DNA of 64,000 nucleotides from Psammoneis japonica (lineage: Eukaryota). The notes beneath the pieces are model-generated. The model had not been told where the DNA came from. It did not search any database and was given only the letters and a program-made list of their open reading frames with translations. The stretch covers positions 559,998 through 623,997 of the forward strand of contig QPGO01000015.1 of NCBI GenBank assembly GCA_008632985.1, in the 5' to 3' direction. A program made the position numbers and the translations under genes. Positions 3,001 through 58,679 of this stretch are shown piece after piece (the stretch's first letter is position 1; each line of letters begins with the position of its first letter).

Positions 3001-3060
3001 GGATCGTCCCACCTTTTTGGCAGAAAATTGAAGCACCAGCCGTGGAAATCAAGAGAGTGA
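1..3060. mobile_element. Decayed repeat/transposon-like block, TpA- and CpG-depleted, family not identifiable
   Basis: Very few TA or CG dinucleotides. Overlapping ORFs in all frames are nearly Tyr-free and rich in Cys/His/Gln. Same signature as the recognisable retroelements at 47.6-56.3 kb. Confidence 0.6.
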
Positions 3061-3303
3061 TGTGTTTCAAAAGGTCAAATGGCAATTTTTGTGTGCTCGT
3101 GCAACAATGAGAAGAAGTGATTCGGAATTCTATTTTTTTGTGTTGTTCCTTGCATGTGCGTGCGAACCCCTGATGATGACGTCGGCGCGCGCGCTCCTCC
3201 ATTGTCGTTTCTCGTTTTTTTTTGTCCCTTTTGTCGTTAGGTGTGCCTTCGTCCTTCGTCCTTCGTGGGTTGTAAATAGGAGACAGTCAAGAGTTGTCCG
3301 ATA

Positions 3304-26693: not shown

Positions 26694-26936
26694 CGTTCGA
26701 TCTCCTTTATTTGTCAATCTGCTCTTAACCTTAACTGTATCTTCATGAATTTATTGCTTATGAAAGTCAATATAAAAATAGAAACATTCAAAAATGTAGG
26801 AAGATAATCCAAATGGAGGTGTGTAATGTTGTGTTGTGTGAATGAGGCGTCGATCGAACCATGATAATCCTGAGTCCGTGAAGTTGAATGTGGCATCATC
26901 TTTCCTACCTAGCTTAATGTGAGTTGTGTGACTGAT

Positions 26937-27939
26937 ATGGCGCTGCTACTACGATATATCTGCCGTGTTCTGTCTTTTCTCGTAATCCTTGTGGTGCTGC
27001 CTTGGTCGGAAAGGTTCACGCGGATTTCGAGCATTGCAGTGGACGAGTCCACAATCGAAGAAGTTAGTCTTGGCTGCGAATGGCAACCACATAATGACAC
27101 GGAATGCATCAATCTCCTTACACGCCGAATATACAAGAATGCTAATTCTTCGGCACCGGTGGCTCTTTTTTGGAGACTCGACAATGTCTCATACATTTGA
27201 GGGCAGTCCTTTGTCTCCAACCGTATTGAGTCAGTTGAAAGCTGAGTGTTGTAAGCTACTGCATGCCGGTACCTGCAATACAGATTCTGTCTTTCGTCTC
27301 GAAAGAACTTCGCAGTGGAACAAACCCAACTTTTCTGCTGGGGAAGGACCAGTCGCTTACGGCTTAGATCATCCATTCTGTCAAGATTGTTCTGGATGCA
27401 ACTCGCGTTTGCTTCTGTGTACTTGTGATGATAGAGGGGGCGGCTACGCCAGTGTGGAGTTTGCCCGGGATGTGGAACTCCAGTCGGTGCAGTATGGCAC
27501 AACACAAGAGAACTAAGGCCTCCCATCTTGCCAACGAATGGAACTCAAATCCCGAACAACATCGGCCGATCTGTGTACTACAAGCCGGGATTCACGACGC
27601 CGCAATCCCAAATATTACGAGTGAAGTCTACTTGGCGAATGTTGAGTGGTATTTACAGATGATGCATTCACAATGTGAACATATAGTCTGGCTCGGTAAT
27701 ACAAGCCCTCAAACAGATGCGAGGCCTCAGAAGAAGAACCGGACACGGGAATGGAATCATGCCATACGCGACAAGATACTTGCCAAACAGTTTCGAGATA
27801 GCAGTTCTTTTGTTGATGTCCATGTTCTTCCACCGGCTTTCACATGACGGATAATATTCACATGGCTGCACCATGGTACAAAAACTTGGGTACAACTTTT
27901 CTCAAAGTCATGAAGTCTTCTCACTATGACATTGAGTAA
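26937..27939 (+). pseudogene. Disrupted SGNH-fold (PC-esterase/TBL-like) gene, copy 1
   Basis: N-terminal TM, WLFFGDSTM, AGIHD and DNIHM motifs. In-frame TAA at 27514-27516 (TGG in copy 2) plus frameshifts. Confidence 0.65.
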
Positions 27940-28199
27940 AAAGGATCAACATGTTGTGGGATTGGTTTGAAATCATTCATGTTGTTTATCGATTTAGTAT
28001 CACTACTGTTGTAACATTGTTCTCCTTTCAATACACTTACTCTGCATCTAGCTCCGCGGCTAGAGCCATGGATTTGTTCCGCCGCTGACGGGACACTATT
28101 CGTTCTTCTACGCCATCGGAAACAACAAACTGTCTCACTCGCATCTTCGACGGCTGTACTAGACAATCATGAATGACTTTTTAAATCGTCATTTTAGAA

Positions 28200-40249: not shown

Positions 40250-42735
40250 GGCTCGCACGATGCGGGTACGATGGCCCACACAAACTTCGAAGGTGGAGTT
40301 CCAGCCGGCAGTGCTGGGAGGTAATGGCCCATATTTTCTGTCCAGTGGGCAAGGTTCCATGGGTGCCAGTGAAGGTGGCTGCACATTGAGCAGCCTCTCC
40401 AAGAATTGGCAGAGCCAGATGCTGGACCAATGTGAAAACCCTTTGTGCAATGATCACTTGGGAGGGTGGGACAGTCATCCAACAGGGTGGTTGCCAGTGC
40501 ATGCCAGGCACAGCTGTTTGGCAGCTTTCGTCAGCAAAGCCTTGAGCTTGAACACCTGGGCCAAGCGGGCATGATAAAGGAGATGGCTGTCATCCATGGA
40601 GAGAACATCTGCAGCTTCAAGTTCATCGCAAAGGGCATCAAAGGCATTGTCAAGTGGGGCCAGAGCATTGTTTGTTGGAGCTGGGAATGACAGGGGTTGA
40701 TTGCTTGGCTGGGATGCAAGCTGTGAGCAATTGAGCTTTGCTCAGAACAAAAGTGCTGAGTGTCCCCACAATTGGCTTTTCTCTCTGTGCACTTGTGTGG
40801 GTGAGCCAGAGAATCACTGGCTCATTTTTGGCAACAGGGGTCAAGAACTTTGAGCACTTGGAATTCTTGACAAAGATGCTCATTCATCACTCGATTGTCA
40901 TCCAGTGCCCAGAGAGGAGTCAGCATCAAAAATGAAGGAAAAGTTGTGTCAAGCAATCAAAAAAGGACTCTGATGTGGCTTCTGGCACAGCACAAAGCAT
41001 CCAGACCATGCCCCAGACTGCAGCACAATCTCCTGGTGCTCATTTGGGTGTGGTGTCAGCTTGCACTGTGATTTTGACACATGCTGCAAGGGGGATTTTG
41101 TCATGGATCTTGATCTCACAAAAGAGGAGAGAGAGAGAATGCACATGGCCAAAGGAGCCAAGAATGGAACAACAGCCTGCTGGCCAGTGCAACTGTCCAC
41201 TCAAGTGCACATTGCTCCTCAGCACAGTGAGCAGGTGCAATCTCTTCCATTGGAGGAGAGAGACCAAGCAATGGTGGCTGTGGAAAAAGAGATTTATGAT
41301 CAAGAAAAGGGCAGTGGTGCTGATGATGTGAAGAAGGCACAGCACCAGATGTGCCAAGCTGCCACCTGCTGTTGCTGCAACTCAAGGAGCAAGACACCCA
41401 GAGTTGACAAAACCAGGCATTGACATCACCTCACATTGGCTTGGTGCAATCTTTGATGAGGCAAGAACAGGTGCCTGTTGGGGTTCCAGAGGTGGTGGCA
41501 CAAGTCAAAGAAAAAAGCGGATGATTGATGATTCGCACGATGTGGGTGCGATGGCTTCGAAGGTCAGTTCCAGCTGGTGCTGGGGGGTGACTGGCCCATT
41601 TTCTGTCCAGTGGGCAAGGTTCCATGGGTGCCAGTGAAGGTGGCTGCACATTGTTGAGCAGCCTCTCCCTTCAAGAATTGGCAGAGCTGGATGCTTTGCC
41701 AATGTGAAACCCTTGACACAACAATCACTTGGCCAGGAGGGTGGTGGGACAGTCGTCGAACAGGGCGGTTGCTGGCGAAGCCTTGAGCTTGAACACCTGG
41801 GCCAAGCTGGCATGATGCAGGAGACAGTTGTCATCCATGGGAGAACACATCTGCAGCTTCAAGTTCATCACAAAGGGTGTCAAAGGCATTGTTGTGTGGG
41901 ATCAGAGCATTGTCTGTTGGAGCTGGGAATGACAGGGGTTGATTGCTTGGCTGGGATGCAAGCTGTTTGCAATCAAGCTTGACTCAGAATGAAGATGCTG
42001 AATGTCCCCACAATTGCTTTTCTGTGCACTTGTGTGGGTGAGCCAGAGAGTCACAAGCTCATTTTTTGGGGCAACATGGGTCAAGAACTTTGAGCACTTG
42101 GAATTCTTGACAAAGATGCTCATCCCTTGATTGTTGTCTGGAGAGGAGCCAGCATCCAAAATGAAGGACAACTTATGTCAAGCAATCAAAAAAGGACTCT
42201 GATGTGGCTTCTGGTGCAGCACAAAGCACCCAGACTGTGCCTCAGACTGTGGCACAATCTCCTGCTCATTTGGGTGTGGTGTCAGCTTGCACTGTGATTT
42301 TGACACACATTGCAAGGGGGACTTCATCATGGCTCTTGATCTCACAAGAGAGAGAGAGAGGAAGCACATGGCCAAAGAAGCCAAGAAAAGAGTGACAACC
42401 TGCTGGCCAGTGCAGCTGTCCACTCAAGCACACATTGCTCCTCAGCACAGTGAGCAGGTGCAATCTCTTCTGCTGGAGGAGAGAGACCAAGCAATGGCAG
42501 CTGTGGAAGAAGAGATGGATGATCAAGAAAAGGGTGGTGGCACTGATGATGTGGAGAGGGCACAGCACCAAAGGTGCCAAGCCACCACACCTGCTGTTGC
42601 AACTCAAGGAGCAAGACACCCAGAGTTGACAAAACCAGGTGTCGACATCACCTCACATTGGCTTGGTGCAATCTTTGATGAGGCAAGAACAGGTGCCTGG
42701 TGGGGTTCCAGAGGTGGTGGCACAAGTCAATGAAA
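40250..42735. repeat. Diverged tandem duplication, unit about 1.2 kb
   Basis: gtcaagcaatcaaaaaaggactctgatgtggcttctgg at 40948 and 42177; gacatcacctcacattggcttggtgcaatc at about 41422 and 42644. Confidence 0.9.
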
Positions 42736-45700
42736 AAAAGATGTTTCACACCAGAGAGTGATGCTGACATTTGTGGCCTGAATCAGGAAGTGCGTGAGAG
42801 GAGACTTCTTGTTGTTCTGAGTGCCAACAATGACAAATCCAAAATGCAGTCCTCAAGAAGATTGTTGTGGCTGTTGGTGGGACAACCTTGAGAAAGAGTG
42901 CAAAGCATTTTGTGGTCAAGTTTGCCATGAGATTCATGTCCAAGGACAGACTGTTGTGCCAGCATTCTTTGCCAGTGTGAAGATTTTTGAGTTTGTGTGT
43001 TCAGACACATGGAGCTTGACAAATCACTGAAGAGCCTGGGCAGCTGACATCAAAGTTGTGTGTGCATGTGTGCAATGCCTCCTCAGCCTAAATGGGGCAA
43101 TTGCTGACCCACCCCCCAGTGTAAACTGGGCTGCTGGCACAGGTCTTTCAAGATGTGCCAATGTTCCTTGGAGCCTTCCACCAGCATTGACACTGACAAC
43201 TTGCTTCTTTCTCTGTTCTTGGTGTCATCAGCTTCCTTGCTGAACCCATCTTCTTTCTTGGCAGTGTGACATTCTTGCCACAGGAGATGTTTTTGCCACC
43301 TCAACCACACACTCACAAACCAATTGCAACAATCTTGAAGCACCTCTCTTTCATCCTGATGGATGAGCAGCAACTGCTTCCAAGCCTTGACTGCCTGGAC
43401 ATGCAGGTTTGTCTTCTCATTTGCATTGAACAAGATTGGCTTGAGAGCTTCCAGCAGTGCCACCATGCCCCACTCCTCTGTGACTCTCATGAACTCTCTG
43501 TCACTCCTTCAATCTCATGACCAATGACCTTTGAACATTGTCCCACAATTGTGCTGAAGAGTGCCTTCACCTTCTTCATCTTGCAGGTCACATTTTGTTT
43601 TGCAAAGTGAGTGCATTGCTTGCCCTAAATTCCCTTGTCCTTTTCTGAGGCAGTGTCTCTCAACAGACAATCTGCTGGCTCCTTTGGCATGCTCTCCTGC
43701 CCCAGAGACACTGGCACCTGTGTCTCTAGCCCAAACATTCTTCCAAAACACTTGCTGATCTTCCTCATGGTCTCTGTGTCATGCACCCACTCCTTTTTGA
43801 ATCTTTCATGCTTCTGCACTCAGCTGTGTCCTTGCCCACATTTTCCAGGACTCAAGTTGGAGTTTCACAGCTTGCCAACAGTCGTGTGCTCAGTCTCACT
43901 GACCCCAACACAACCTTGCTGCATCCTCTTTCAGCAGACCCTTGACAGCTTCTTTGATGGCAAGGCCCTCCAGAGATTGTTTCTTTGCCCTTGTCCAGCC
44001 AGCTTGCTTGCCACAATTCACTGACATGACAAGATGTGCCTTGGGACTCATGTTGACTTCCCAGCCTTTTCCTTTGAATTCTTGATGACTTCCCAGCCTT
44101 TGAATGACACCACTTCTTTGAGTGTCATTCCACGACTTTTCAGCTTCTGTGTTGGAGTTTCATGGCTTGCTGACCAGCACATGCTCAGTCTCCCTGACAC
44201 CAAAGTCACCATGTGGCTTGACTGCAAACACACCCCTGATGCCACCAACCGACTGTTGCTGTGTCAACCAGGTGCAGAAGCCAAAAAGTGAGCACAAGAC
44301 CTGAAACCCAAACCAAGTTGCAAGTGCAAATTCACCATGTTGTCCACAATCATCAGCACATCTTACACTGCAACTTTGTCTGTCCTGTGAACACTGCTCC
44401 AAAACCCCAATGTTCCAACAAAATGGTGCAGGCAACCAACTTAAAGGCTCGACACAAGAGCAAATTTTCAATGGCACAACTGATTTGAAAGCAGCAGCAA
44501 ATGTTGCAACACTTGGTTTGGCCACTGGAAAAAAATGATGAAATGACATGCAACATTTTTGTTCAAACTCAAGATGTGTGCCAGCAAAGTTTTGAAGGAC
44601 CTTCTCAATTTTCATGCATCATGTGCAGCACCTGGACTGCCTGCCTGCCATGATGGTGCCAGTGCCAGTGTGCACTTCTGCTGCACAATCATGTGTGTGC
44701 ACACAAGACCAGGGCTCTGCATGTCTGTGGGCCGTGCCCCCCAGAAGGGCTGCTTGTTTTGATGACATGTGAGAGCCTTGGAAACAGACATGAATTTGCT
44801 CTCCCCATGTGTTCACCACACAGCTTGTGTGCCAGGCAGTGAAAATGAGCTGTTTTCATGGCAACTCACTCAGCCAGCAGACATGCTCCAGCTCCAAGTG
44901 GGACCTGCCTCACTCTGCTGAACTGTGACATCAGAGTTTTTTTTCATGTGCCCCCCCCCGCAGAGTTTTTTTCATGTGCCCCTGCATGTCATGCACTTGC
45001 AATGCACATGCTTTTTTCCACAAAATTTGTTTCATGTTCTCTGTTTTGCAAAGCCACAGGCTTTTTGGTTGTGTCCATTTGTGAGAGGCAGCAAAGATCA
45101 AGAATGAAAGAGGAGATGCAATCTTACAAAATTGCCTCTTTTTCTGTTGGCGATCATCCATGCATTCATTGCCCACCAATGCACTTGCTGTGGAGCTTGT
45201 GCACAAAATTGCATGGGCCCAATGCAATGGGCAGTCTCACCCATGGCTGGAACATGCCAGCAGTGACTCTAAATGTGCACATTGTTTTTGACTTGCACCT
45301 CTTGCACGTGGCACACACATGCCTGCACAGTCTAACATCCATGCACTGTGTGCTCACATGAGATGATGCTTCCTCTGGCAAGTGACATGTGTTCACAAAG
45401 AAAGGCGCAAGTGTCATTTTGTTGAGGCCACAGATCACAGGAGAGTGCTGCTTCCACATCAATTTTTCTTTGTTGCCATTTTGTGCCACCTTTTTGCCCC
45501 ACAAAAAACTGCCAAATGGCCCTGTTGAATCTCTTCTGTTGGCCCCACTGTGGCCCACAATGCCAGTTTGATTTAATGGCAAAATGATGCAGGTGCTCTC
45601 ACGCTGATCCCAAGTGCATGCAACACAATTTTCCAGAGCTGTTGCCTTGTGCAAAACAGTGCTGCTCAAGGTGCAACTCTGACCTGGGATCAAACACCTC

Positions 45701-47500
45701 TCAGCTCTGTTCCAGCTCTGCCATGAGACACACTTGAGCATCCTAACATGAGCAGCACAAGTCATTGGCCAGCACAGAAAGCTCATTGTGACTCCAAAAA
45801 TTGGCCAGGTTGCATGGTTGCACCTGTTTGTCCCAACAACATGTGGCATCTTGCACCTCAGATTCTGCTTTGCTGGATCAAGAAGGTGCTCAATCACCTC
45901 CATCTGAGTCATGAACATGCTGGAAAAACTTCTGGATTTTGCAATGAAGTGTTTGCAAGTCCTCAGCACAACCATCCCCTCCAACACTTGTTGGCTGTGA
46001 ACAAATGACTGGGCAATTGTCCCTCCAGATGATGGTTGCAAATGGGATGAACTGACAGCCACACTGCCCCCCCCCCTGCAAAGAATGTTGTCCCCCACTT
46101 TTAAGCCCTTGCTTTTCAAGACTTTCCCAACCTTGCAAGTTAAAAATGCACTTTCTTGTTTCAATGCCTTGGCTCCTTTGACAAATGGCAGTTGGTCCTC
46201 CTCCATGAGCTGCTCCAACAATGGCACTTGCAGCTCAGTGTCCTGGTGGAAATGTTCCCCAGGATTGGAGAATCTTTGCTGCCTTTTGAAGCACTCATGT
46301 GCAGCAAGCACCAGAGCATGCTTTTCATCAGAGTTGAACCCCATTTTGTTTTGCTCCAGCACCCATTTGTGCATCATCCAATCAGTGGCAGCTTTTGATG
46401 CACCTCAAGTGTGAGCATGAGGATCTGCAAGTGGATTTGCCCCTTTGTTCTTGACCTTGGATGGGGTCAATGTATTTGCAACATTGTGAATGTCACACAA
46501 CAGTCTTCTCTCTGGAGTCTCAAGTTTTAAATTGTTTGTCTCAGCAAGAGCAGCCCACCTGGCAGTGGAGTCCTTGGACCTGTTCATCCACCCCCTCTCC
46601 TTTGGTCATCCTTGTCCAAGGTGCTCCAGCGCTGGGTGCTTCTTCCTGACCCCACTCATCACTCAATCTTTTTGCCTTTGGAAGCAGACCTGCAGCACCT
46701 TTTGGTCTTTGTTGTGCTTCTGTTGCTGCTGTTTTTCCACCATGATGCCATGAAGTCAAGCCCATGTGTTGTGTTGTGTCGTCAAAGTTGGCAGTCATTG
46801 AGCTTTGTTTGCTGAATGCCAACAAGTGCTCACAGACAACAATGCTGGAGAGAGTTGACTTGATGTGACACCAATGCTGGCTCTGTTGCTCACATGGCAC
46901 AAATGACATCAACAGCTCTTGTGTTGACATCAAGTGATCAGACAGACCCAGCTCTTCCTGTTGGGCAATCTCCCATGCAGCACTCTGGCACAACCTGCAC
47001 CAATCATGCACAACCTGTGCAAACACTTGGTTTCAGTTCAGGAGGGTCCATGGTGTGAAAGTGTTGGGGTTGGAGGAAACAAGTGCTGCAGAGCTGCTGG
47101 CCATTGTTGTTGTTGGTGTGTGTGGTGTGTTGTGATGTTGTGCTGATGGTGGCTGCTTTTTGTGGAATTTCCATCCAAGCTGATCACAAACAGACAAAAA
47201 ACTTCAACTTGCAAACCTGGCAGGATGAACCAACCCCAGCTGACAACCCAAAAAGGGAACACTGTGGTGGTTTGGAGCTGTCTCCAGCAAAGCCTGATTC
47301 AAAGAAACCAAGAGCAGAGACTCAAGCCCTGGCGGTGCTTCACAGCACAAAAACATGAGATTCCAAGAAAGCAAGCAAGAAGACATTTTGCAATTTCACC
47401 TTGATGTCAACTTGTCAAACTCTTGGTTGCTCACATTGCAAAATTGACCCTGCTTGTGGTTCAAGTGACAGGAAGTTGGGTGAAAAGCCCGGGAAACTCA
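42735..47500. mobile_element. Decayed repeat-derived DNA, TpA/CpG-depleted, family unresolved
   Basis: Same dinucleotide signature; includes a 403-aa ORF (45166-46377) with no Tyr. Confidence 0.5.
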
Positions 47501-47579
47501 CAACCTCTCTCCAAGGACCAGCCTTCTGCTGTCAAAAATTTGTCAATTTATCAGCAACTCACCCACCCCTGATGTCAAC

Positions 47580-50500
47580 AATGAAGGAGACAAAAACAAG
47601 GCCAATGCCAAAGCCAACAAGCAAGGAAAAAACTGCATCCAACAATCAAGAGAAAGATTTGATGAGGGAAAAGATGGCAAGGAGGTCAGTGCTGTTGCCT
47701 CAAGCAAGAAAAAGAGCACAGGAGGAGAGCCATTGCAACCCATCCAGTGATTTCAAATCAGATGCTGAGTGCACCATTTTCAAGGTGCGTGGCAAAACAC
47801 ATCACCTTGATGATGGCACTCATTTGGGTGGTGGTGGCATGTTGGATGACAAAATTTGGCAGTGACGCTGGTGCCGGCTGACAATGCCCTGCCTGTCACA
47901 GCAGCGCAATGTTCCAAATGGTTCTGCACAAAAACAACTCATTGCAATGCCAGCAGAGCTGCCACATGGAGTCAAGACAAGGAAGTGGAGTTTGAAGGGG
48001 TTGTGGTGTTCCAGATTGTTGTGGTTTTGCAATGTGGTCACAACACAAAGGGAGCCAAGGACATGTGTGAACCCTTCTCACAAGGCACATCATGGATGAC
48101 TGAGATGTGGAGAAACACAAGATGCTTGTCTGGTCCATGGAATGACTGCTTGCCAGTGATCCAAAATTCATTCAGAAGGATGAGATGCCAGAGCAGCAAG
48201 CCAGGACATTCAAATGAATGGCACTGTGAGGAAACCTGCTTGTTGCCACAGTGTGGTGCACTTCAGAGCATGAAAAAGGTGGAGAGCTTGCGCCACATGA
48301 CATTGATGAGAAGACCAAAAGGACACCATGTTTGAGGTTCTAAAGTGAAAACACCCAAACTCAAGGATTCTGGAAGAAGATCATTTTCACATGTTTGACA
48401 AGCTGTCCAAATTCCAAGATGTTGTTGTCACTGACAGGAGTGCTGTTGAGACCTTTGTGCAGAAACTGCCAGGGTCAGGGAGTGTGGGGCTTGCCAGCTT
48501 GGGGGGTCAGACACCAGTGCAGTGCCCAGTGGCTGCTGCATCATGAAAAAGATGGTGGGTTGCTTGGGACATGTGCACATTTGCAAATTGGCCAGCAAAT
48601 GAATCTCCTTCTCAGGCAGCCTGCTGGGCACTCATGGCAAAGCAACCACTCACACTGGACAAAAATCCGGGCATTCAGCATTGGCAAGAATTGACAAGCC
48701 ATGGTCACAGCTCACAGCTGTTTTTTGTTGCCAGAGCAGAGGTCAAAGAGGCTTGTGGCACACAGGTCAGCTGTGCATGGGATTGGAAGCAAGAGCCAAA
48801 AGTGGAGTTTGCATGATGAACTTGCTCTGGGAGCAACACAAGTTTGAAAACAACCACAATTTTCCACTCACCAGTTTTCCACCCACCAATGCCTCCAGCA
48901 GCTTCAACAAGCACAGTGGGATCTTGATCATGTGCAATGCAAGGCAATTCTGGTGATCTGGAGCAAGATTTGCCTTCAACTGCTGTGCATGCATGGGAGC
49001 ATCCCAATCATCTGCAGCCACTCCTGTGGCATGGTTGCCATCCCTTTCAGCAGGAGAGGGTGTCACTCAAGGCAGTCCACTCAGTGTGGCAACACATGGG
49101 CTGGGACTTCTTCCATTGGCATGCAAATTGAGTGAGCAGCTTGCCAGTGCATTCACCTTGTGGCACACAGACAACTCTGCAGCAACAGGCAAGTTCAAAG
49201 TTCTCTGAGAGTTCTTTTTGACCCTGTGTGCTGTCGGACCACAAAGCACGGGGGCTGCCCTGCCAAAGACTCACTCCAAGAACATCCCAGCAGCTCCAGA
49301 GCACATTCTGGACAATGCAAAGAGTTTTTTTGGAGACCTTGGAATCACTGTCACTGCAGGCAACCACCGCCTTGGAGGCTTTGTTGGCAAGAAGGCAGCT
49401 TTTGACACATGGACAGCAATGAAATCCAAGGCATGACATGCAGTCATCCAGGGTCCAGCCAAAATGGCAATTCACCACCTGCAGACCACTTGTGCAGGTC
49501 TTCAAAAGTCCCTGCAGTGCAAGTGGCAATGCATCCAATGTGCAGCAAAGGGCTGTGGCGAGTCATTCCCCAATGCAGAAGATGTGATTGCATTCCAGTT
49601 CCTCCCAGAGAGCCAATTGCCAAGACCTCAGCTAAAGACAACAACCCAAAATTTGCCACCTCGCCCACACTTCCAACCAATTTGCAGGACTGTCCATCCC
49701 TCATCCAGTGGAGTCAATGAAGCAAAACTTTGAAGAGAGTGCTCTCAGCACTCACTTTGCTGTTGCTCCAAAAAGTTCTTCTCAGTGATGGTCTTCACAA
49801 GGACATGATTCAAGATGAGAATCGGGAACCAGCTGAAAGGAAAGCCAAGTTGCATGAGGAAAAATTTAAAATTTGTCTCCGTCCTCCACCCAATGAGATG
49901 GCCCAAGCATCAAGGTGTGGCGCCAATGCCAGTTCACAGCTGTCAGCACCCCCATTTTTGCCAAATGAAGCAGAGCTGGTCATCTTCTTTTGCCAAGAGT
50001 TCCAAGATGCCCCACATGTGCAATGTGGCCATGAGCCTCCAGACCAACTCAAAACATGTGATGGGTCATGTGATTGTAAATGTTCTGTCCAACATTCCCT
50101 TCAATGCAAGAAGGGCAGCCCAGTGATCTCATGACATGTTGAGGTGCATGATGAGTTTAGCAACTTGTTGACCAAGGCTGCCAACCAAGCCATCAGCTGC
50201 TCATCATGAACCAGCCATCAACCCTGGTCACACCATCAGAAAAGTCCTTCAGCCAATGGCAAATCTTGCAGTTTGGTCTGCAAGCACCTGCAAATGGAGA
50301 CCATGGAGACACTCTGCAATGAGGCTGGTGGGAATGCATGACAGCCAGACACCATGTTCTTTGACATCAGAGTTGCCAGTGTGGGTGCCAATCCTCCCCA
50401 CCTTTCCAAGACTCCAGAACATGCCCTGTTGGACCACAAGAAGGAGAACAAGTGTGAGTGTCTCAAGCCATGCCTTGAGAGCAGCATTGTCACTTCACCC

Positions 50501-50850
50501 CCTCTTCACAGTGTCATGCCATGAGTTGTTGGGCAAGGAAGCCAAAGCACCAGCCCTCTGGTGGGCTTTGTCAAAGCTTTCAGACTGATGGCAGAAGCCA
50601 CACTAGATTCGTCAATGCCAGAATGAGCATGGCAACATTGAGGGCTGCTCACCATTCTGTCCAAGAGGCTCAAGAATCCCCTGATCCCAGATCATCCTGC
50701 CAGAGGCACCCTCTCTCTGGGAGGGCAGTGCTGGTCCATCCTTGTGCAGGCACCAGTCTGCTTCCTGCACCAGTTGGCAACATGGCATCGAGGCTCAGCC
50801 TTGACACACCCAAGATCAAGGATGCAACCAAATGTCATCCCCCAAGACCC
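47580..50850 (+). mobile_element. Decayed non-LTR retrotransposon (RT plus C-terminal zinc knuckle/restriction-like endonuclease, CRE-like)
   Basis: LDKNPGI, EVKEACGT-QLC, EGVTQGSPLS, WHTDN (inferred WYADD, 49161-49175), HRLGGFVG, AGLQKSLQCKWQ, CDG..C..SVQHSLQCKKG and RFVNARMSMATLRAAH, in several frames. Confidence 0.85.
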
Positions 50851-52099
50851 CCAACACCACAGGGCTTCAGTTTAAAATGTTGGTGGTGCCAGAGGCAGAT
50901 CACTCAAATTTTCATGTGCAGCACTCAAAACGTCACTCATGCAAGACCCAATTTCTGCATTTGCACATGAAATTAACTGTGCAAATCCACTTTTTGCTTG
51001 TGACTTTCAGGAGGAAGCAATGTCTTGTGATGTCCTTGCTTGTGCACATGAACTGCATTTTGGTTCATGTGCACTTCAGGGTGTGTGCACCCTGCACAAA
51101 ATGCTGCACAGATTTGTGCCAAGTGAATCTGCGCGCAACTCCAGTGCAGTGGACAGCTGTTTTCATGTGTGTCTGACACAAAAGCTGCATGTTTGCACCA
51201 CTTGAAACTTGTCCACTGAGCCAGCAGTCATTTGCTGGCCATTGTGAAAAACATTTTGTCTCTGAGAAAGAGCATGTTGAGGCCAGCAAACAACACACCC
51301 CATGATGCAACTGGTGGAAAATCTGCACAAATGCACAGAAACCAGCATGTGGCTTCTGTGCAAAGCAGAGCTTGAAAAAATGAGCAGGGGCATTGAACAT
51401 TTGATGATGGATTCAAACATCTCACTTGCACCGAAGCCCCAAACTGCTTCAAAAATGCAGCATGCTCCACAGTGCTGCCAGCATGACAGCAATCTTTCAT
51501 GCTGCACAGTCATTGCACAGAAACCATGTGTGGACCAGCACTGAGAAAAACTCAAAATTGACTTTCCATCTTCTGCAGTGAATTTTGTTTCCATCAAAAA
51601 TGGAGAACACTTGCAACTGATCAGGTGCATTTTAGATCAACACATTTGCAACAATGGAGGTGGTCAGCAAAGCACTGCAGCAACTTCTTTGTTGGGGCAA
51701 ATGCCGCCACAACTTTCCTTGCAAAAAACAAATCTGCAGTGCCAGATCAAACACAAGAAACCACACAGCAATGTGTGACAGAGGCAGGAAGACTGTTCAC
51801 CAATCACACCACTGCTTCAAAAGTTCAGAGGCAAGAAGAAGAACATGAGGTCACAAAGTGTCTCAGTGTTGATTGCTTCCCTGGAGGTGTTTGAAGCTAA
51901 AGGCCCTCCTCATCTGTTGTCTCAGAGGGACATTTCCAGTCTTTGCACCCAGTCCTCTTCATTCCATGTTCAATGCACTTGCACAGCTGCAACAAAAAAT
52001 GAAATTTTTGTGAGATGTGTGCATTTTGAGAGACACAAGTTTAAAACTTGGTTGACATTGCATCGAGCCAGAGCATTGTGGGAGAAAAAGAACAGATGA

Positions 52100-52865
52100 G
52101 AATGCCACAAAATTCAGCATCACTGAAAAAGAGGGTGCACACAGAAGATTGGCAGGTGGAAGGCTGGAGTTGGAGGAGAATTGGGAGCAACCTGCACCAC
52201 ACATGAAGAACAAATGAAGTTAAATTGCAGGATTCTGTGCTGATGCTGCAGTTCCTGCGGGGTTGTTCTGGGTGCTGCAGGATTCACACGGGGCTCCATT
52301 GAAACAAGAATGGAGGGGTTGGTCAATTTGGGCTGGAGTTCATTGAGTGCACAGGTGAATCCAATGGAGCCACAAAGGACCTGCACTGCCCCTCCTCTGA
52401 TGCAACCATGAAGCAGTGGAATGAGCTGCCAACTCCCTTTGAGCATTCTGAGAAGAAGAATCCACAGAAGGGTGAGTGCTGGGTGTGCAAGCTGTGCAAT
52501 GATCCTGCAGATCCAGACAGTTCCATGCACAAGCTGAGTTTGCCACACTTTCCTGTGGGAATGTGAGAGAAGTGGACACTCTTCAAGCACAACTCAGGCA
52601 CTGAGCCTGGGGTTGATGTCATGCTCGTGACACTCACAGAAGAAATCAGATGTCAGGAGGATGTGATCATCAAGGATGGAATCCACAAGAATCACATTGT
52701 TCATGACATGGCAGCAATGACAGTTGCCAAATTCATCAAAGAGGTTGGACACGGCATCACACCATTTCTTGGCATCTGTGAACTGGTGGTCAAGCACAGA
52801 TGGGTCCCAGGTGTCATCACCGGGGAGAACCACACAGGGCAGATCATCCCTTTTTTGTTGCAGGT
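52100..52865 (-). mobile_element. Inverted fragment of a Ty1/copia (CoDi-like) pol, pre-integrase/integrase region
   Basis: LPCVVLPGDDTWDPSVLDHQF...WCDA...FDEFGNC resembles the CoDi LPHVVLT.D..WDPSVLD...FDEFGNY segment. QNPA remnant near 52230. Confidence 0.6.
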
Positions 52866-52869
52866 GTGA

Positions 52870-55260
52870 GGATGCATGGCAGACTGCTGCACCCATCATC
52901 AACTCCTGCCATGACTCTGAGGACTTGCTGGATTCACCAGATGGGGAGGAGATTGGGATGCCCAAGATGCCAGTCTTCAACCCCAAGGACATCATTGGAT
53001 GCACCTTCCTCATGAAGCCACAAGAGGATGGACAGTGCCACAGAGCCAGCATTGTCAAGGCCATTGAGGACCAGCATGATTGGGAAATTGGTGACAACCT
53101 GGAACTCATCAAGTTCATTTGTTCAGTTGACAATGATGAACACAAGGAAATCCTTGCCTGCAGTGACATCATCCATCACATGGAGCAAGAAGACAAGGAC
53201 GCCTTTGTTCAGAAATTCTGATGCAGCATTGTCTCACATGAAAGACCATTGAGACCTCACGATCCCTCTTGGAAAGACTCAAGCCACAATGTCATGCTTG
53301 AGTGGGAGAGCAGGGAGATTGCATCTGAACCTCTTGGCATCATTGTCAAGGATGACCCTGTCACTTGTGCCATCTGCGCATGCAAGCACAGTCTGCTCAA
53401 AACCAACAGATAAAAATGCTTCCTTGCCACAGCTCTGTTTCAGAAGAAGCTGTTTGCATGGTCAATCAAGCCAAGCTGCACTTGTTTCATGCTGTGCCAC
53501 ACTGCAAGTGTGGGCATGAAAGTGCCCCAGGACTGCAAGCATGCTTTGGCCCTTGACAAGTGGTGCAATGGCAACTGCAAGTGGGGAGATGCAGTGGATC
53601 TTGAGATGTCTCAGCTTGGTGAGCACAAGGTCTTCCATGATTGTGGACACTGCAAGGACTCCAGCACCCCAGCAGGACACAAGAAGAGATTCAGGTGCAC
53701 CTCGTCTGTGATGTCAAACATGATGGCGGGCACAAAGCATGACTTGTTGCTGATGGACACCTCATGGACATGCCCATCAACAGTGTCTGCTCTGGAGCAG
53801 TGTCCCCCTTGGCCTCTGACTGATGATCTTCCTGGCCAAACTCAATGAGCTAGAGACATGGGCGACCAGCATGGGCAATGCCCACCTTGAAGCCACAACA
53901 AAGGAGAAACTGCTGCACATTGTTGCAGGCCCTGAATTTGGAGAATTGGAAGGACACATCCTTGTCATCCACAAGGCTCTGTGTGGCCTCTGCAGCTCCA
54001 GCCTCAGGTGGCATGGGCATTTTGCTGATTGTCTGTGAGCTGAAGGATTCTTCTTGTGCCATGCTGAACCCAACATCTGGTTGCACCAGAATGGCAACCA
54101 TTGTGAACATGTGGCAGTGTGTGGATGACCTGTCCTTCACCATGAAAGATTCTCAGGCCTTCAGTGACACTCTCACAGAGAAGTGCAAGTTCAAACTCAA
54201 AGGCACTGGACCACTGCAATTTCACCTGTCACAACTTCTCTCATGACTCCAATGGCACACTGTGCCTTGCTCCTTGCAAGTGCATTGAACGCATGGTCGA
54301 AAATTGCACACGCCTCTTTGGGGAGAAGCCTTGTGCTGGTGTGCCATCCCCTCTTGAAAAGGAAGACCACCATGAGCTTGACACCTCCAAACTGCTCTTC
54401 TTGATGGCATCCATCAATTTCAGTCATTGGTTGGTTCCCTGCATTGGGCTGTGTTGCTCAGTTGCATCAACACCACTGCAGCCATCATGTCTTTCTCTAG
54501 TTTGCACACAGCCTGTGGATGCTTGTCCAAGATGCAATGTGGTGCCCTGTGTGTGCACACTGAGGAACATGACTGTTTGGACCTCCCCAAGCCTGTGCAT
54601 GATTGGGCTCAAACCATGAGTGGTGATGTGGAAGAACTGCTTCCAAAATGCATGCCCGGGCCTCTTGGCAAGTTCGTCACCATGACCCATGGTGTTGATG
54701 CAAGCTTTTCGCTGGATGTTCCATGACAGGTGCATCATTCATTTCCTCAACAAGTTTGCAGCTGATTGGTTCTCCAAGAAACAAGCCACAGTCAAGACTG
54801 CAACTTGTGGATCTGAGTTTGTTGCTGCCAGGATGTCTGTTGAACAGATCATTGATCTGCACATCACATGGCATTGCCTCATCATCCTGATCTGTGACAC
54901 CTCTGTTGCATGTTTGGGGACAACAAGTCAGTTGTGGACAGTGCTGCCATCCCACACTCCAAGTCAACACAAACAACACACTGCCCTCTCATTCCATCAT
55001 GTGCACGAGGCAATGGCCTCTGGTTTCCTCAAGTTCCACTTTGATGAAGGTTCTTCCCGCAACCCCGCTGACATCCTCAGCAAACACTGGGGTTGCTCCC
55101 AGGTTTGGAACCTCTTCCATCCTCTCATGTTTTGGAACTTCAATCCCAAGGCCTTTTTAGCCAATCTGACTTTGAACCCATCTCTGTGGACTCCTCAAAC
55201 AAACTTGGGAGTGACAGGATTTGAACAAGATTTTTGTTTGTCGCGCACAACTGTGTGTGC
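52870..55260 (+). mobile_element. Decayed Ty1/copia (CoDi-like) LTR retrotransposon: post-integrase linker, RT, RNase H and PPT
   Basis: IIGCTFL..PQEDGQ, DDPVTCA, GNAHLEA...AGPEFGELEG...KALCGLCSS, CVDDL (54118), WFSKKQATVKTATCGSEFVAAR and NPADILSKHWG. PPT-like GGGAG followed by TGACAG at about 55207-55217. Confidence 0.92.
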
Positions 55261-55379
55261 TGTGATTTGATTTTAAGGCACTCAACTGACAAGAATGACA
55301 ACAGCAGTGCTGACATCATGACACCAGTCTTTTGGCTCCTGCCATGGTCTCTGCACAGAGACTCATGTGCCATTTGGAC

Positions 55380-55700
55380 AGCAGCAAGGAGTCATTGTTT
55401 TTCTTCCACCCATTTTCTCTTAAATTTCTGTCAGAGCATGAGCTCCAGGGACAAAGTGTTGCTGAAGGACTGGCAAAGTTCTTGCTTGTGCGCAGGCTTC
55501 TTGAGGGCAATGCTCTGACAACATTGAAGAACACTGCTGATTGCCAAGCCACCAAAGCCAATGTCACCTTCAAAGCCTGCACAGAGAAAATGATGCAAAG
55601 CTTCTTCCCATGCAGGTTGGTGCTGCTGCAGAGGCATTGTCTGCCATGGTGCTTCGCACACAAGCCCGCTGATGTCAAGACTCATGAGAGTGTGCTGCAG
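55380..55700 (+). mobile_element. Decayed gag-like fragment (probably Ty3/gypsy-type)
   Basis: KFLLVRRLLEGNALTT...FKAC...FFP..LVLLQRHCL...KPADVK resembles diatom LTR gag sequences (recalled pattern, not searched). Confidence 0.5.
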
Positions 55701-56250
55701 ATGCGTTCCAGCCTGGGTGGGACTGCATGTGACATTGGGCCCACAGAATTCACGCGCAAGCTCTGCCACAAAAGCATTGGGTGATGCGTGCACCAACAAT
55801 TGCCAGTGTGGAAAAAGAGGCAATTTTGCAAATGTGCAAGCTCCTCCATGCTTGGAGGGCACAATCTCCAGTTTGCCCGGGTGTGTTGTCCAGACATTGG
55901 AAAATGCCCAGCTGATTTTCACTTGTGTGCAAAGAATGGTCACAAGCATCTCAAGCCTTGTCTTGAGCAATGACATCATTTCATGCCATTTGTCATGTCG
56001 TGCAAGATGATCCACTTAGCAAAAAAGCCAGCCCTGCCAAGACCATGCTCTGCATGATTGCTGCAAAGCCCATGGACAAGTGGCAAATGCCCTGTTCAGA
56101 AGTTTGCAGCTTTGTGAATGTGATGATGAGTGTCACTGCAGTCAGAGCTGCTCATCAATGCATCAGGGGCTCATGCTCCATCTTCACAAATTAGCTCCAG
56201 GTGCCCTCAGTGGGAAGATGGTGCTGGTTTGTCACTCCACAGGCACTGAG
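55700..56250 (+). mobile_element. Second 3' fragment of a CRE-like non-LTR element
   Basis: KWQMPCSEVCSFVNVMMSVTAVRAAHQCIRGS parallels the C-terminus at about 50600-50670. Confidence 0.7.
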
Positions 56251-56803
56251 AAGTGCCATGCAATCTGGATGTCACACACTGGGACAAAGTGCTGAGGCCA
56301 TTTTGCAAGATGCTGTGGACATCTTGTTGTGCGCATGACACAAAAAGCACACAAAAAACACAGCTTCCTCATGTGCAAAACCCAGCTTTCTCCTGTGCAA
56401 GCACCTTGTACATTTTGTTTGGTTTTTGTTGTAGAAACTGTGCCAGCTCTGTGCATGCACATCAGCTGCATGCTTCAGTGCCAATCACAACTTTGATCGC
56501 CAACTGCCAACCGCCAACTTGAGATTGCGCCAACACAAAAAATGACCACAACCATGAAAATCCAAAAAGCAGTCCTGCTCCGAGTGATGCTCAAAGCAGG
56601 ACATTGAGTGCCACACCTGTTCCCAGCTTGGAGACCATTGCTCTAGCATCAATGATTTTGCAGTTGCCGAGTGCAAGTCCAGCTCTGAGGAGCACACCAA
56701 CTCACCCAACAAGACCACTGAGTTGCAATCCTGCACTGAGTGACAAGTCCAGCACACAACTCCAAGCAACAGCCCAGCGCCAAGCTCGAGTCCATGTGCA
56801 GCT

Positions 56804-58325
56804 CCATCACAGCTAAACAACTGCACACTCAATGCAAGCACATTCACAAAATGTGAGCATGAAAAACAGAAGCGTTGCAAAGGCTGACTCATGTTTCTCT
56901 CCTGTTGTTACATTCAAAGTTTGGAATGGACCCTGTCACCCAATCCTGCCCTTGATCTGATGCTGCAGCAACTGTGGAGCCCAACTCACTCCCTGCATCC
57001 AATCCTGCACTAACTCTGAATTGGGCTGGCCCACCTGCTCTGCCTGCTTCCAACCCAAGTCCACAGCCAAATCCTCCTTCTGTGCCAAATCTGATGCCCG
57101 ATCCAAATGCACTGTTGACATTTACAATGCCAAATTTGACAACCAATGCTCCAAGTGGCCTTGCTGATGGATGAAGAAAATGAATGGGAAGAGGACAGTT
57201 GAGGGAATGCCTGCACTTGGATGTGGCTGTCTTCTAGATTTCAATCCCTTGAGTTGGTTGAACCTTGATTCTCTCTTGTCCCAGACAGCTTTGCTCAAAC
57301 AGACAAGGGTCCATTTGTTGGATCCAGCAAGGGAGCACCAACCCCGCACATTTCAACCCAGCATCATTGCCTGCTCTGAATCGGACTTGCCCACCTGCTC
57401 CGCCTCCGTTGCTTCCTCTTGCTTCCCACTTCCTGCTTCCTGCTGCTACTCCCACACCAAATCTGACACTTGATCTGACTCCACTGCCAACATCAGCAAA
57501 TGCTGGCACCAAATCTGATGACCAGTCCTGCACCTGGTCCCACCCCAGCACCATCCCCGCAGCCCATGTCCATCACAGCTAAATGGCTGCACACTCAATG
57601 CAAGCACATTCACAAAATGTGAGCATGAAAAAGAGAAGCGTTGCAAAGGCTGACTCGTGTTTCTCTCCTGTTGTCACATTCAACGTTTGGAATGGACCCC
57701 GTCACCTGATCCCACCCCCGATCTGACGCTGCAGTAACTGCTGAGCCCAACGGACTCCCTGCATCCAATCCCACACTAACTCTGAATTGGGCTACCCACC
57801 TGCTCCACCCACTTCCGACCCAAGTCCGCAGCCTGATCCTCCTCCACCCCAAATCTGACACCCGATCCGAATGCACCGTTGACATTTACAGTGCCAAATT
57901 CGACAACCAATGCTCCAAGTGGTCTTGCGAATGGATGAAAATGAATGGGAAGAGGATAGTCAAGGGAATGCCTGCACTTGGATGCAGCTGTCTTCTAGAT
58001 TTCAATCCCTTGGGTTGGCTGAACCTTGATTCTCTCTCGTCCCAGACAGCTTCGCTCAAACAGACAAGGGTCCATTTGTTGGATCTAGCAAGGGAGCACC
58101 AACCCCGACACATTTCAACCGGCATCATTGCCTGCTCTGAATCAGTCTTGCCCACCTGCTCCGCCTCCGTTGCTTCCTTTTGCTTCCCACTTCCTACTTC
58201 CCACTGCTGCTCCCACACCAAATCCGACACTTGATCCGACTCTACTGCCAACATCGGCAAATGCTGGCACAAAATCCGATGACCAGTCCTGCGCCTGGTC
58301 CACCCCAGCACTGTCCCCGCAGCCT
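56804..58325. repeat. Tandem duplication, unit about 766 bp (56804-57569 and 57570-58325)
   Basis: ccatcacagctaaa...ctgcacactcaatgcaagcacattcacaaaatgtgagcatg begins both copies, which align throughout. Confidence 0.95.
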
Positions 58326-58679
58326 TTGTAATTTCTGTCTTTCACACCAATTGAACTCTACCTCTGGCTCCACCTGCTCCTCCGGCAAGTGCTTCATCAA
58401 GCAGTCCTGCTCCGAGTGCTCCAAGCAGATCAACCGAGTGCAAGAAGCCCTGCCACTGTCTCATTTTTTCCAGATGCACTCTTCCTACACCACCACTGTC
58501 ACCTCCTCCTGCCCTCAATCTAATGGTGAAGCCAAGTTGCACCCAATCCCACTGCATCAAACTCGACGAACTCCATGTTGTGAGACCCTGCAGGTGGAGG
58601 GATGAGGGACATCATCTCATTTCTTGTTGGCAATCTAGCTTGCCATTGTGAGTGTGAGTTTTGTGACTGACATGATAAT

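What the first reader, a model, noticed from the sequence alone, without database searches (positions are those of the whole stretch)
52870..55260. Copia pol with conserved Tyr replaced by His or Cys
Seen against recalled copia consensus: GNAYL->GNAHL, KALYGLR->KALCGLC, YVDD->CVDD, TATYGSE->TATCGSE, HWGY->HWGC, plus VE->VK (CG->CA). Both TAY->CAY and TAY->TGY occur, so both strands are hit. An unrelated element class shows the same spectrum as the non-LTR element, which points to a host process rather than an element-specific RT bias.
Basis: partly seen in the sequence, partly recalled or inferred. Interest (0 to 1): 0.75.

Follow-up and report, generated by a model that had tools for sequence, protein, structure and literature searches.

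The report
Diatom transposons stripped of TA and CG
A dead copia-type jumping gene in a diatom genome, like all the transposon-derived DNA around it, has had nearly every TA and CG dinucleotide turned into CA or TG on both strands, a mutation pattern that matches no genome-defence or decay process I could find described.

Summary
Window 52727-55135 (+) is a frameshifted Ty1/copia pol remnant. It has 0 Tyr where its best relative has 29; those positions now read 14 Cys, 8 His and 7 others. CGN-type Arg codons have likewise become Cys, His, Gln or TGA.

This is one face of a block-wide change. In three blocks (1-3100, 28200-30950, 40340-56400; 21.8 kb) TA falls from 37 to 2.4 per kb and CG from 58 to 5.9 per kb. 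CA and TG both rise to 115 per kb, the total of pyrimidine-purine steps is unchanged, and so is G+C. Host genes between the blocks are normal, and four block edges are sharp to about 100 bp.

Both strands are hit, and the hits are interspersed. Two tandem copies at a block edge are converted unequally. Residual TA and CG sites differ between the window and an independent read set at the same locus.

TA loss follows a flank rule, TAY to TGY. Database relatives show CG-only decay (24) or Tyr-only loss (4), so there are two separable activities.

Best reading: an in-situ, domain-targeted DNA hypermutation, probably adenine plus cytosine deamination. No report was found in 10 literature searches.

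The parts
52727..55135 (+). Degenerate, 5'-truncated Ty1/copia pol (end of integrase, RT, RNase H): 0 Tyr codons, 14 frameshifts, 4 in-frame stops.
   Evidence: Frameshift-aware alignment to RVT_2 polyproteins: P0003 has 419 of 785 codons identical. phmmer of ORF 54686-55267 gives E 6.6e-32.
52600..52893 (-). Short inverted fragment resembling the integrase or upstream region of a copia polyprotein. It abuts and overlaps the start of the main remnant.
   Evidence: tblastn hits: P0003 residues 671-734 and P0016 residues 10-110, E about 1e-7.
55136..55850 (+). High-copy sequence downstream of pol, probably the 3' LTR (inferred, not shown).
   Evidence: Summed contig depth is 17,600-26,400 against about 57 for single-copy sequence. 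It is TA/CG-poor like the rest of the block.
40340..56400 (.). Block C core: 16 kb of TA- and CG-depleted DNA with CA and TG doubled.
   Evidence: No Pfam family reaches its cut-off in 82 ORFs.
56400..58650 (.). Edge of block C. It is fully converted to about 57570. A half-converted plateau (unconverted fraction about 0.21) runs from 57600 to 58600, and the sequence is normal from 58650.
   Evidence: Tandem copies 56803-57564 and 57569-58324: copy 1 has CA or TG where copy 2 keeps CG (17 sites) or TA (5 sites); the reverse occurs at 3 sites.
40253..42738 (+). Two tandem 1.27-kb units (83% alike), each ending in an A-rich tail. They are possibly non-LTR or SINE-like.
   Evidence: At 22 dinucleotide columns one copy has CA and the other has TG. 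The outer copy's first 80 nt keep CG and TA where the inner copy has TG.
28200..30950 (.). Block B: a 2.75-kb depleted insertion between normal genes.
1..3100 (.). Block A: a depleted block that runs off the window start.
26918..28141 (+). Control: a GDSL-lipase gene fragment duplicated at 58653-60128 (901 nt at 95%). It directly flanks blocks B and C and is not depleted.

Best explanation
The copia remnant lies in silenced, transposon-derived chromosome domains of a diatom. Those domains are subject to a DNA-level, post-integration hypermutation with two separable components.

(a) TA becomes TG, with the target motif 5'-TAY-3' going to 5'-TGY-3'. On the other strand this reads RTA to RCA.

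(b) CG becomes TG, which reads CG to CA on the other strand.

Each component hits either strand independently, site by site. The process ends when the self-complementary pyrimidine-purine step has become the non-palindromic CA/TG, which is no longer a target. This leaves G+C and the total of pyrimidine-purine steps unchanged.

What is shown: the spectrum, the strand symmetry, the domain limits, the polarity and the flank rule. What is inferred: targeting by chromatin domain rather than by repeat pairing.

The chemistry is my best guess only: hydrolytic deamination of adenine to hypoxanthine, which is read as G, at TAY, and of (5-methyl)cytosine at CpG. This could be the work of one dual deaminase of the ADAT2/TadA kind, or of an adenine deaminase working beside ordinary methyl-CpG decay.
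For: Spectrum. Blocks hold TA 2.4, CG 5.9, CA 115.2 and TG 115.2 per kb. Gene regions hold 37.0, 57.9, 70.3 and 71.2. The sum of the four steps is 238.7 against 236.4 per kb, and block G+C is 48.6%.

Polarity. Conserved Tyr and Arg codons give the ancestral state. Of 114 mismatched conserved codons, 59 are explained by one CA/TG-to-TA/CG reversion (CG>CA 24, CG>TG 14, TA>TG 14, TA>CA 7), against 14 explained by any other single transition. The family-majority letters in run X1 restore CG at 52979, 53000 and 54794, and TA at 54775 (43% of depth).

In situ at DNA level. At the block edge, tandem copy 1 is converted at 22 sites where copy 2 is not; the reverse occurs at 3 sites. At single-copy depth, 16 of 23 listed differences between the window and X1 contigs interconvert TA/CG with CA/TG. 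That is 7 in each direction plus one TG/CA pair. About 31% would be expected if mutation ignored context (p 1.6e-4).

Domain targeting. TA and CG densities change together within about 100 bp at 3100, 28200, 30950 and 40330. A 901-nt duplicate at 95% identity, lying just outside the blocks, is untouched.

Flank rule. In an additive two-strand Poisson model, the TA loss rate by the base 3' of the A is A 0.41, G 1.26, T 2.37 and C 2.54 (LRT chi2 71.8, 3 df). For CG the effect is weak (chi2 16.5). The polarised sites agree.

Two activities. Of 265 classifiable relatives out of 270, 24 show Arg decay with Tyr kept. Four (P0066, P0068, P0106, P0288) show Tyr replaced by Cys or His with Arg kept and the rest of the protein well preserved.

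Not an assembly artefact. Contigs of run X1, at k-mer depth about 57, carry the same TA/CG-free sequence; one example is 3389 nt with 13 differences.

Precedent for the chemistry. Amphioxus ADAT2/3 deaminates both C and A in DNA (PMC10354150, abstract read).
Against: No enzyme, base modification or chromatin mark was or could be examined, because the genome is not held.

X1 may be the sample the window was assembled from, so it confirms the reads but is not a second organism.

The 22 CA-versus-TG discordances in the 1.27-kb tandem pair could come from two separately edited insertions. The unit has an A-rich tail.

The Tyr-only relatives are known as proteins only. Their DNA could not be fetched, so TA depletion there is inferred.

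Many copies of this copia family in X1 still carry CG and TA, so being repeated is not enough to be hit.

Flank rates rest on 52 residual TA sites. Some of these may be new mutations. The expectation comes from gene DNA, not from the elements' ancestors.

Deamination is not distinguishable here from changes to the partner bases (O-alkylated or oxidised T and G) or from error-prone repair synthesis.
Confidence: 0.55

Rival explanations
1. Passive or repair-driven decay of heterochromatin with no dedicated adenine deaminase. CpG is lost by ordinary 5-methylcytosine deamination. TA is lost by a secondary route: either error-prone patch repair triggered by the T:G mismatches (as Pol eta does at WA motifs in antibody hypermutation), or oxidation of thymine (5-hydroxymethyl- or 5-formyluracil made by a TET/JBP-type enzyme), which mispairs with G.
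For: TA and CG depletion share the same domain edges. CG-only decay is common in related elements elsewhere: 24 of 265 relatives, and loci L047 and L039 with CG o/e 0.04 and 0.14 but TA 0.56 and 0.50. CG-retaining islets inside the block (41518-41558, 41754-41776, 28215-28274) look like unmethylated CpG escaping. Diatom transposons are known to be CpG-methylated (PMC9998398, passages read).
Against: TA loss (15-fold) is more complete than CG loss (10-fold). It is also ahead of CG loss in the half-converted zone, where TA is 13 and CG 31 per kb against 37 and 58 in gene regions. Tyr-only relatives keep Arg, so TA loss does not need CG loss. AA is not depleted (79 against 85 per kb), and 19 of 22 conserved Tyr changes are transitions, unlike the Pol eta spectrum as I recall it. 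None of the 80 related loci with CG decay shows TA decay, although that search was biased towards Tyr-keeping copies.
Confidence: 0.2
2. Editing before integration. A host restriction factor deaminates retroelement RNA or cDNA during reverse transcription (APOBEC3- or ADAR-like), so the elements arrive already hypermutated. The blocks are then simply nests of such dead-on-arrival copies.
For: Block edges are sharp and could coincide with element ends. The Tyr-only relatives are otherwise well preserved, as expected of a single burst. The 1.27-kb tandem units could be two separately edited insertions.
Against: The pattern is strand-symmetric and interspersed: CA 287 against TG 283, runs z -0.3. 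RNA or minus-strand cDNA editing would be one-sided. Tandem copies at the block edge differ in dose by position. Residual sites are polymorphic in both directions at the same single-copy locus. Every part of 21.8 kb is saturated, including sequence with no recognisable coding remnant.
Confidence: 0.12
3. Sequencing or assembly artefact: modified bases (5mC, 6mA, 5hmU) in heterochromatin miscalled as transitions.
For: Modified-base miscalls in long-read assemblies are typically transitions at methylated motifs (recalled, not from any call).
Against: Contigs built from exact 31-mers at depth about 57 in run X1 carry the same sequence. Tyr-free copia fragments also occur in several unrelated metagenome assemblies. 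Conversion is essentially complete and each site is resolved to either CA or TG, unlike a consensus of mixed miscalls.
Confidence: 0.03
4. Adaptive avoidance: the elements evolved to avoid TA and CG while still active, for example to escape methylation or nucleases.
For: CpG and UpA avoidance under selection is known for RNA viruses (recalled, not from any call).
Against: Catalytic and invariant residues are destroyed (YVDD to CVDD, CGA to TGA stops). There are 14 frameshifts. Depletion covers non-coding sequence and differs between adjacent tandem copies.
Confidence: 0.02

Closest known systems
Repeat-induced point mutation (RIP) of Neurospora and other ascomycetes
   Same: It saturates transposon DNA with transitions on both strands, destroys coding capacity and has sharp domain limits. 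Diatoms possess DNMT4 enzymes related to the RIP factor RID, of unknown function (PMC9998398, passages read).
   Different: RIP changes C to T mainly at CpA. That creates TpA and makes the DNA AT-rich (established knowledge, recalled). Here TpA is destroyed, A:T pairs become G:C, and G+C stays at 48.6%. RIP senses duplication. Here a 901-nt duplicate at 95% is untouched and two tandem copies receive unequal doses.
Methyl-CpG decay of silenced transposons, and CpG-targeted RIP-like mutation in basidiomycetes (recalled)
   Same: CG to TG/CA on both strands with CpA/TpG excess. The same CG-only signature is seen in 24 related copia fragments and in loci L047 and L039.
   Different: It does not touch TpA. 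Those CG-decayed relatives keep Tyr and have TA o/e of 0.50-0.56.
APOBEC3 (G-to-A) and ADAR (A-to-G) hyperediting of retroelements and viruses
   Same: Enzymatic deamination gives clustered transitions with a dinucleotide preference. ADAR prefers a 5' U (recalled).
   Different: Those act on single-stranded cDNA or on RNA and leave one-sided spectra. ADAR is confined to animals (recalled). Here the pattern is symmetric, in situ and limited to TA, with a 3' pyrimidine preferred.
ADAT2/ADAT3 tRNA deaminases with DNA activity (amphioxus; Trypanosoma brucei, the latter recalled)
   Same: One natural enzyme deaminates both C and A in DNA (PMC10354150, abstract read). The natural tRNA target A34 follows U33, i.e. 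a TA step (recalled).
   Different: The reported DNA sites were TCG and GAA, in hairpin loops, in E. coli and in vitro. No genome-defence role or TAY preference is described there, and no diatom enzyme was examined here.
Very-short-patch repair and CTAG scarcity in E. coli (recalled: Bhagwat and McClelland 1992)
   Same: A T:G-to-C:G repair bias converts TA-containing words into CA/TG words.
   Different: That effect is a mild, genome-wide bias tied to one methylase motif. It does not give 15-fold, domain-limited erasure in all 16 flank contexts.

Membership tests
Ty1/copia (Pseudoviridae-type) LTR retrotransposon pol | RVT_2-type reverse transcriptase with the Y[VI]DD motif | tested here: met
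   The window aligns over 785 codons to polyproteins that score RVT_2 (PF07727) at E 1e-25 to 1e-31. The motif reads CVDD at 54118. Pfam does not detect the window's own fragments even at E<=10.
Ty1/copia (Pseudoviridae-type) LTR retrotransposon pol | Domain order with integrase before RT and RNase H | tested here: inconclusive
   The remnant is collinear with the last roughly 825 residues of P0003 (1047-1871), where RT is followed by the RNase H region. Gag, protease and most of integrase are missing, and no integrase model matched.
Ty1/copia (Pseudoviridae-type) LTR retrotransposon pol | Flanking LTRs | tested here: not met
   There is no direct repeat around the remnant in the self-comparison. 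It is 5'-truncated. The only hint of a 3' LTR is a high-copy stretch at 55136-55850.
RIP (repeat-induced point mutation) | C-to-T transitions, mainly at CpA, raising TpA and A+T | tested here: not met
   TpA is 15-fold depleted, CpA is enriched and G+C is unchanged.
RIP (repeat-induced point mutation) | Triggered by sequence duplication, with both copies hit | tested here: not met
   The 901-nt, 95% duplicate at 27156-28055 and 59031-59920 is not depleted. Tandem copies at 56803-58324 are hit unequally. The age of the duplication is unknown.
RIP (repeat-induced point mutation) | Dependence on a RID/DNMT4-type protein and on the premeiotic stage | not testable with these tools
   The genome is not held. 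Diatom DNMT4 is known only from PMC9998398.
Methyl-CpG deamination decay | CG to TG/CA on both strands in methylated DNA | tested here: met
   CG is 10-fold depleted. Arg CGN codons have become Cys, His, Gln or TGA. Methylation itself was not tested.
Methyl-CpG deamination decay | Accounts for the whole spectrum | tested here: not met
   It cannot give TA to CA/TG. Relatives with CG-only decay keep TA.
RNA/cDNA editing by restriction deaminases (APOBEC3/ADAR type) | Strand-asymmetric spectrum fixed before integration | tested here: not met
   CA 287 against TG 283, runs z -0.3, and in-situ polymorphism.

The most novel reading that the evidence does not exclude
Diatoms possess a previously undescribed genome-defence mutator, a 'reverse RIP'. 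In this reading a natural deaminase acts on adenine in double-stranded chromosomal DNA at 5'-TAY-3'. It is directed to silenced transposon domains and erases every TpA, and with it all Tyr codons and all TAA and TAG stops. It either pairs with or also performs CpG deamination. It would be the first natural A:T-to-G:C repeat-directed hypermutation and the first natural DNA adenine deaminase with a genomic role.
Probability: 0.3. Interest if true: 0.92.

Novelty: new variant of a known kind. Interest (0 to 1): 0.82.

Why it matters
Repeat-directed hypermutation is known essentially from fungi, and always as C-to-T. A saturating A:T-to-G:C process limited to TpA, tied to transposon domains and neutral for G+C, would be a new mutational mechanism in a major group of marine primary producers.

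It would give a testable role to orphan diatom enzymes such as DNMT4/RID-like proteins, ADAT- or TadA-like deaminases, and TET/JBP proteins. It could also point to a natural DNA adenine deaminase, an activity so far obtained for base editing only by directed evolution (recalled).

There are practical consequences too. Because TAA and TAG vanish, these blocks are open in all six frames: 151 ORFs of at least 40 aa in 8 kb. They can feed spurious 'hypothetical proteins' into databases; Tyr-free copia fragments are already there. The converted elements also escape Pfam-based transposon annotation: none of 117 ORFs reached a cut-off.

Tried and rejected
Pfam on six-frame ORFs of the blocks. I ran 8 and then 74 ORFs of block C and 35 ORFs of blocks A and B; a second call re-ran 7 copia pieces at E<=10. 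No family reached its cut-off, only chance-level hits such as CTC1 and Oleavirus_coat. The same tool found 14 ordinary domains in host genes of the window, so the failure is due to the mutated sequence.

The longest block ORF (45169-46404, minus strand, 412 aa) has no relatives. The Atlas best score was 0.76, and the word-indexed homology search gave nothing at E<=0.001. It is probably a spurious frame. I therefore could not name any second element class.

No whole genome is held for this window, so no search for deaminase, DNMT4 or TET/JBP genes and no genome-wide census was possible.

I did not pursue it.

No RNA holder is listed for the stretch.

Earlier notes of this scan gave nothing on this genome, on the words tried, or on the sequence.

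I tried to obtain DNA of TA-depleted relatives. Of 80 metagenome loci, none is TA-poor (lowest TA o/e 0.33). However, the search patterns demanded Tyr or Phe at two Tyr columns, so the search was biased against such copies. A second search used an alignment of the Tyr-free proteins. It found 2 loci in bacterial MAG contigs and 1 in a viral contig, all with normal TA. Cluster look-ups gave no organism names.

I ran ten literature searches. They covered diatom or transposable-element terms combined with TpA/CpG, hypermutation, RIP-like, deamination, 5-hydroxymethyluracil and TA/CG dinucleotides. None returned a report of joint TA and CG conversion to CA/TG. The library lacks most subscription journals.

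Tandem Repeats Finder does not report the 766-bp and 1.27-kb repeats, because its period limit is 500. Self-BLAST found them.
Full report
**What is at the coordinates**

The stretch 52870-55260 has almost no TA or CG: 4 TA and 17 CG against 276 CA and 284 TG in 2391 nt.

Pfam sees nothing in its reading frames, even at E<=10. A full HMMER search with ORF 54686-55267 finds 1526 relatives, the best at E 6.6e-32. The long relatives are RVT_2 (Ty1/copia) polyproteins.

My own frameshift-aware alignment places window 52727-55135 (+) on residues 1047-1871 of P0003. It covers 785 codons, of which 419 are identical, with 14 frameshifts and 4 in-frame stops. So this is a 5'-truncated, dead copia pol.

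A short inverted copia fragment sits at 52600-52893. High-copy sequence, probably an LTR, follows to about 55850.

**The observation**

Relatives carry GNAYL, KALYGLR, YVDD, TATYGSEF, HWGY and VETAT. The window reads GNAHL, KALCGLC, CVDD, TATCGSEF, HWGC and VKTAT.

The window has no Tyr on the aligned path, where P0003 has 29. Those positions now read 14 Cys, 8 His, 1 Trp, 4 Phe, 1 Ser and 1 Gly. Cys rises from 9 to 40 and His from 35 to 58, while Arg falls from 33 to 12.

- In 22 columns with conserved Tyr, none is kept: 12 Cys, 6 His, 1 Trp, 2 Phe, 1 Ser.
- In 26 columns with conserved Arg, only 4 are kept, all as AGR codons. The others are 7 Cys, 7 His, 3 Gln, 3 TGA, 1 Gly and 1 Leu.
- Of 114 mismatched conserved codons, 59 return to the consensus residue by one reversion of CA or TG to TA or CG: CG>CA 24, CG>TG 14, TA>TG 14, TA>CA 7.
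- A further 14 do so by any other single transition, and 41 do not.

**It is block-wide, not element-specific**

Dinucleotide profiles show three blocks in the window in which TA and CG vanish together: 1-3100, 28200-30950 and 40340-56400, the last with a partly converted tail to 58650.

| per kb | TA | CG | CA | TG | sum of the four |
|---|---|---|---|---|---|
| Blocks (21,822 nt) | 2.4 | 5.9 | 115.2 | 115.2 | 238.7 |
| Gene regions (39,100 nt) | 37.0 | 57.9 | 70.3 | 71.2 | 236.4 |

- G+C in the blocks is 48.6%.
- The observed counts are 52 TA and 128 CG, against about 806 and 1263 expected.
- All 16 flanking contexts are depleted.

The pattern is what one expects if every self-complementary pyrimidine-purine step had been turned by one transition into CA/TG.

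The DNA between the blocks carries ordinary host genes with normal composition: SNF2/HSA helicase, RING, DHHC, HscB, sugar transporter, malate synthase, BTB, GDSL lipase and a kinase. The malate synthase is 78% identical to that of raphid pennate diatoms, so the host is a diatom.

**Strand symmetry**

Three measures show no significant strand bias:
- Tyr to Cys 12 against Tyr to His 6 (p 0.24).
- Within-codon sites, 23 purine-type against 16 pyrimidine-type changes on the + strand (p 0.34).
- CA 287 against TG 283 in the element.

Over all 59 polarised sites the ratio is 38 to 21 (p 0.036). Protein-based detection favours first-codon-position purine changes, so this is not clean evidence of bias. 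Strand choice is interspersed along the element: 27 runs against 28.1 expected.

**In situ and still going on**

1. At the right edge of block C, two tandem 766-bp copies differ in dose. The inner copy has CA or TG where the outer keeps CG at 17 sites and TA at 5; the reverse occurs at 3 sites. At 12 sites one copy has CA and the other TG. The unconverted fraction steps from 0.07 to 0.21 at the copy junction and to 0.4 at 58650.
2. The outer 1.27-kb tandem unit keeps CG and TA in its first 80 nt, at the block edge, where the inner unit has TG. The pair shows 22 CA-versus-TG columns. The unit has an A-rich tail, so two separate insertions cannot be excluded.
3. Contigs of a public DNA run (X1, k-mer depth about 57) carry the same TA/CG-free sequence. 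Of the 23 listed differences at single-copy depth, 16 interconvert TA/CG with CA/TG: 7 in each direction plus one TG/CA pair. About 31% would be expected without context dependence (p 1.6e-4). X1 may be the source sample, so this shows the reads are real and the sites polymorphic, not a second organism.
4. In the high-copy part, the majority letters in X1 restore CG at 52979, 53000 and 54794, and TA at 54775 (43% of depth). This polarises the window's state as derived. It also shows that many family members are not converted.

**Targeting**

TA and CG densities change together within about 100 bp at four edges. A 901-nt, 95% duplicate of a GDSL-lipase gene fragment lies directly outside blocks B and C and is untouched. 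Together with the unequal tandem copies, this argues for targeting by chromosomal domain rather than by repeat pairing.

**Flank rule**

Residual TA sites are concentrated in YTAR contexts: 35 of 52, against 20% in gene DNA.

I fitted an additive two-strand Poisson model. TA loss rates by the base 3' of the A are:
- A 0.41
- G 1.26
- T 2.37
- C 2.54

The likelihood-ratio chi2 is 71.8 on 3 df. The motif is therefore TAY to TGY, equivalently RTA to RCA. CG shows only a weak effect (chi2 16.5), with GCG slowest.

The polarised sites agree: YTAY gives TG 10 to CA 2, and RTAY gives 3 to 4. This accounts for the excess of Cys over His.

**Two separable activities**

Of 270 relatives, 265 could be classified:
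- 24 show Arg decay with Tyr kept, which is ordinary CpG decay.
- 4 (P0066, P0068, P0106, P0288) have Tyr replaced by Cys or His with Arg kept and everything else well preserved.
- P0284, P0095 and P0300 are also Tyr-free or nearly so.
- Only the window shows both kinds of loss.

The Tyr-free relatives come from unnamed metagenome or NCBI records, and their DNA could not be reached. The nearest DNA relatives I could fetch are normal for TA, but the first of those searches was biased towards copies that keep Tyr.

**Mechanism**

Shown: the spectrum, the symmetry, the polarity, the domain limits and the flank rule. Inferred: action on chromosomal DNA after integration, aimed at silenced domains.

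My best guess for the chemistry is deamination of adenine at TAY and of (methyl)cytosine at CpG. A natural ADAT2/3 that deaminates both bases in DNA exists (PMC10354150, abstract). The tRNA target of such enzymes is a U-A step (recalled). Diatom DNMT4 is related to the RIP factor RID and has no known function (PMC9998398, passages).

The rivals are repair- or oxidation-driven TA loss secondary to methylation, pre-integration editing, an artefact, and adaptive avoidance. They are set out above with their evidence.

**Comparison and novelty**

It works like RIP in outcome but fails RIP's defining spectrum and its duplication trigger. Methyl-CpG decay explains only half of the pattern. APOBEC- or ADAR-type editing fails on symmetry.

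Ten literature searches found no description of this pattern. I rate it a new variant of repeat-directed hypermutation. The TA component is possibly a new enzymatic activity.

Noticed in passing
window 40340-58650, for example 50000-58000: With TAA and TAG gone, the blocks are open in all six frames: 151 stop-to-stop ORFs of at least 40 aa in 8 kb, and a 412-aa ORF at 45169-46404 (-) that has no relatives. Such DNA will yield spurious gene calls.
   Followed up: partly
window 4286-4418 and 4941-5075, N at 4940: A 137-nt direct repeat (95%) lies beside the single N of the window. It looks like an assembly gap or join artefact just upstream of the SNF2/HSA helicase gene.
   Followed up: no
window 41518-41558, 41754-41776, 28215-28274: Small islets keep several CG (4-5 in 25-60 nt) inside or at the rim of otherwise CG-free blocks, while TA is still absent there. 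They may be unmethylated CpG patches.
   Followed up: no
window 26918-28141 and 58653-60128: A GDSL-lipase gene fragment is duplicated. One copy ends just before block B, and the other starts exactly where block C ends. Both have normal TA and CG.
   Followed up: partly
proteins P0066, P0095, P0284, P0288 (0 Tyr), P0068, P0300 (1 Tyr): Copia RNase H-region fragments in public metagenome or NCBI protein sets have every conserved Tyr replaced by Cys or His but keep Arg. They may be TA-only converted copies in other samples or species.
   Followed up: partly
loci L047, L039, L030: Related copia loci from metagenomes show strong CpG loss (o/e 0.04-0.23) but ordinary TA (o/e about 0.5). These are natural examples of CG-only decay.
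   Followed up: partly
window 30803-30909: A 107-nt imperfect palindrome lies at the right end of block B.
   Followed up: no
window 5425-11810: A large SWR1/SRCAP-like helicase gene (HSA, SNF2, Helicase_C) has four internal repeats of an acidic DDETT..EE.LGR motif and an F-box-like end in the last ORF.
   Followed up: no
window 33657-33961 / 37519-37827 and 36097-36251 / 37854-37999: Short dispersed repeats (81-90% alike) lie inside the gene-rich part and have normal TA and CG. Small repeats outside the blocks are therefore not converted.
   Followed up: partly
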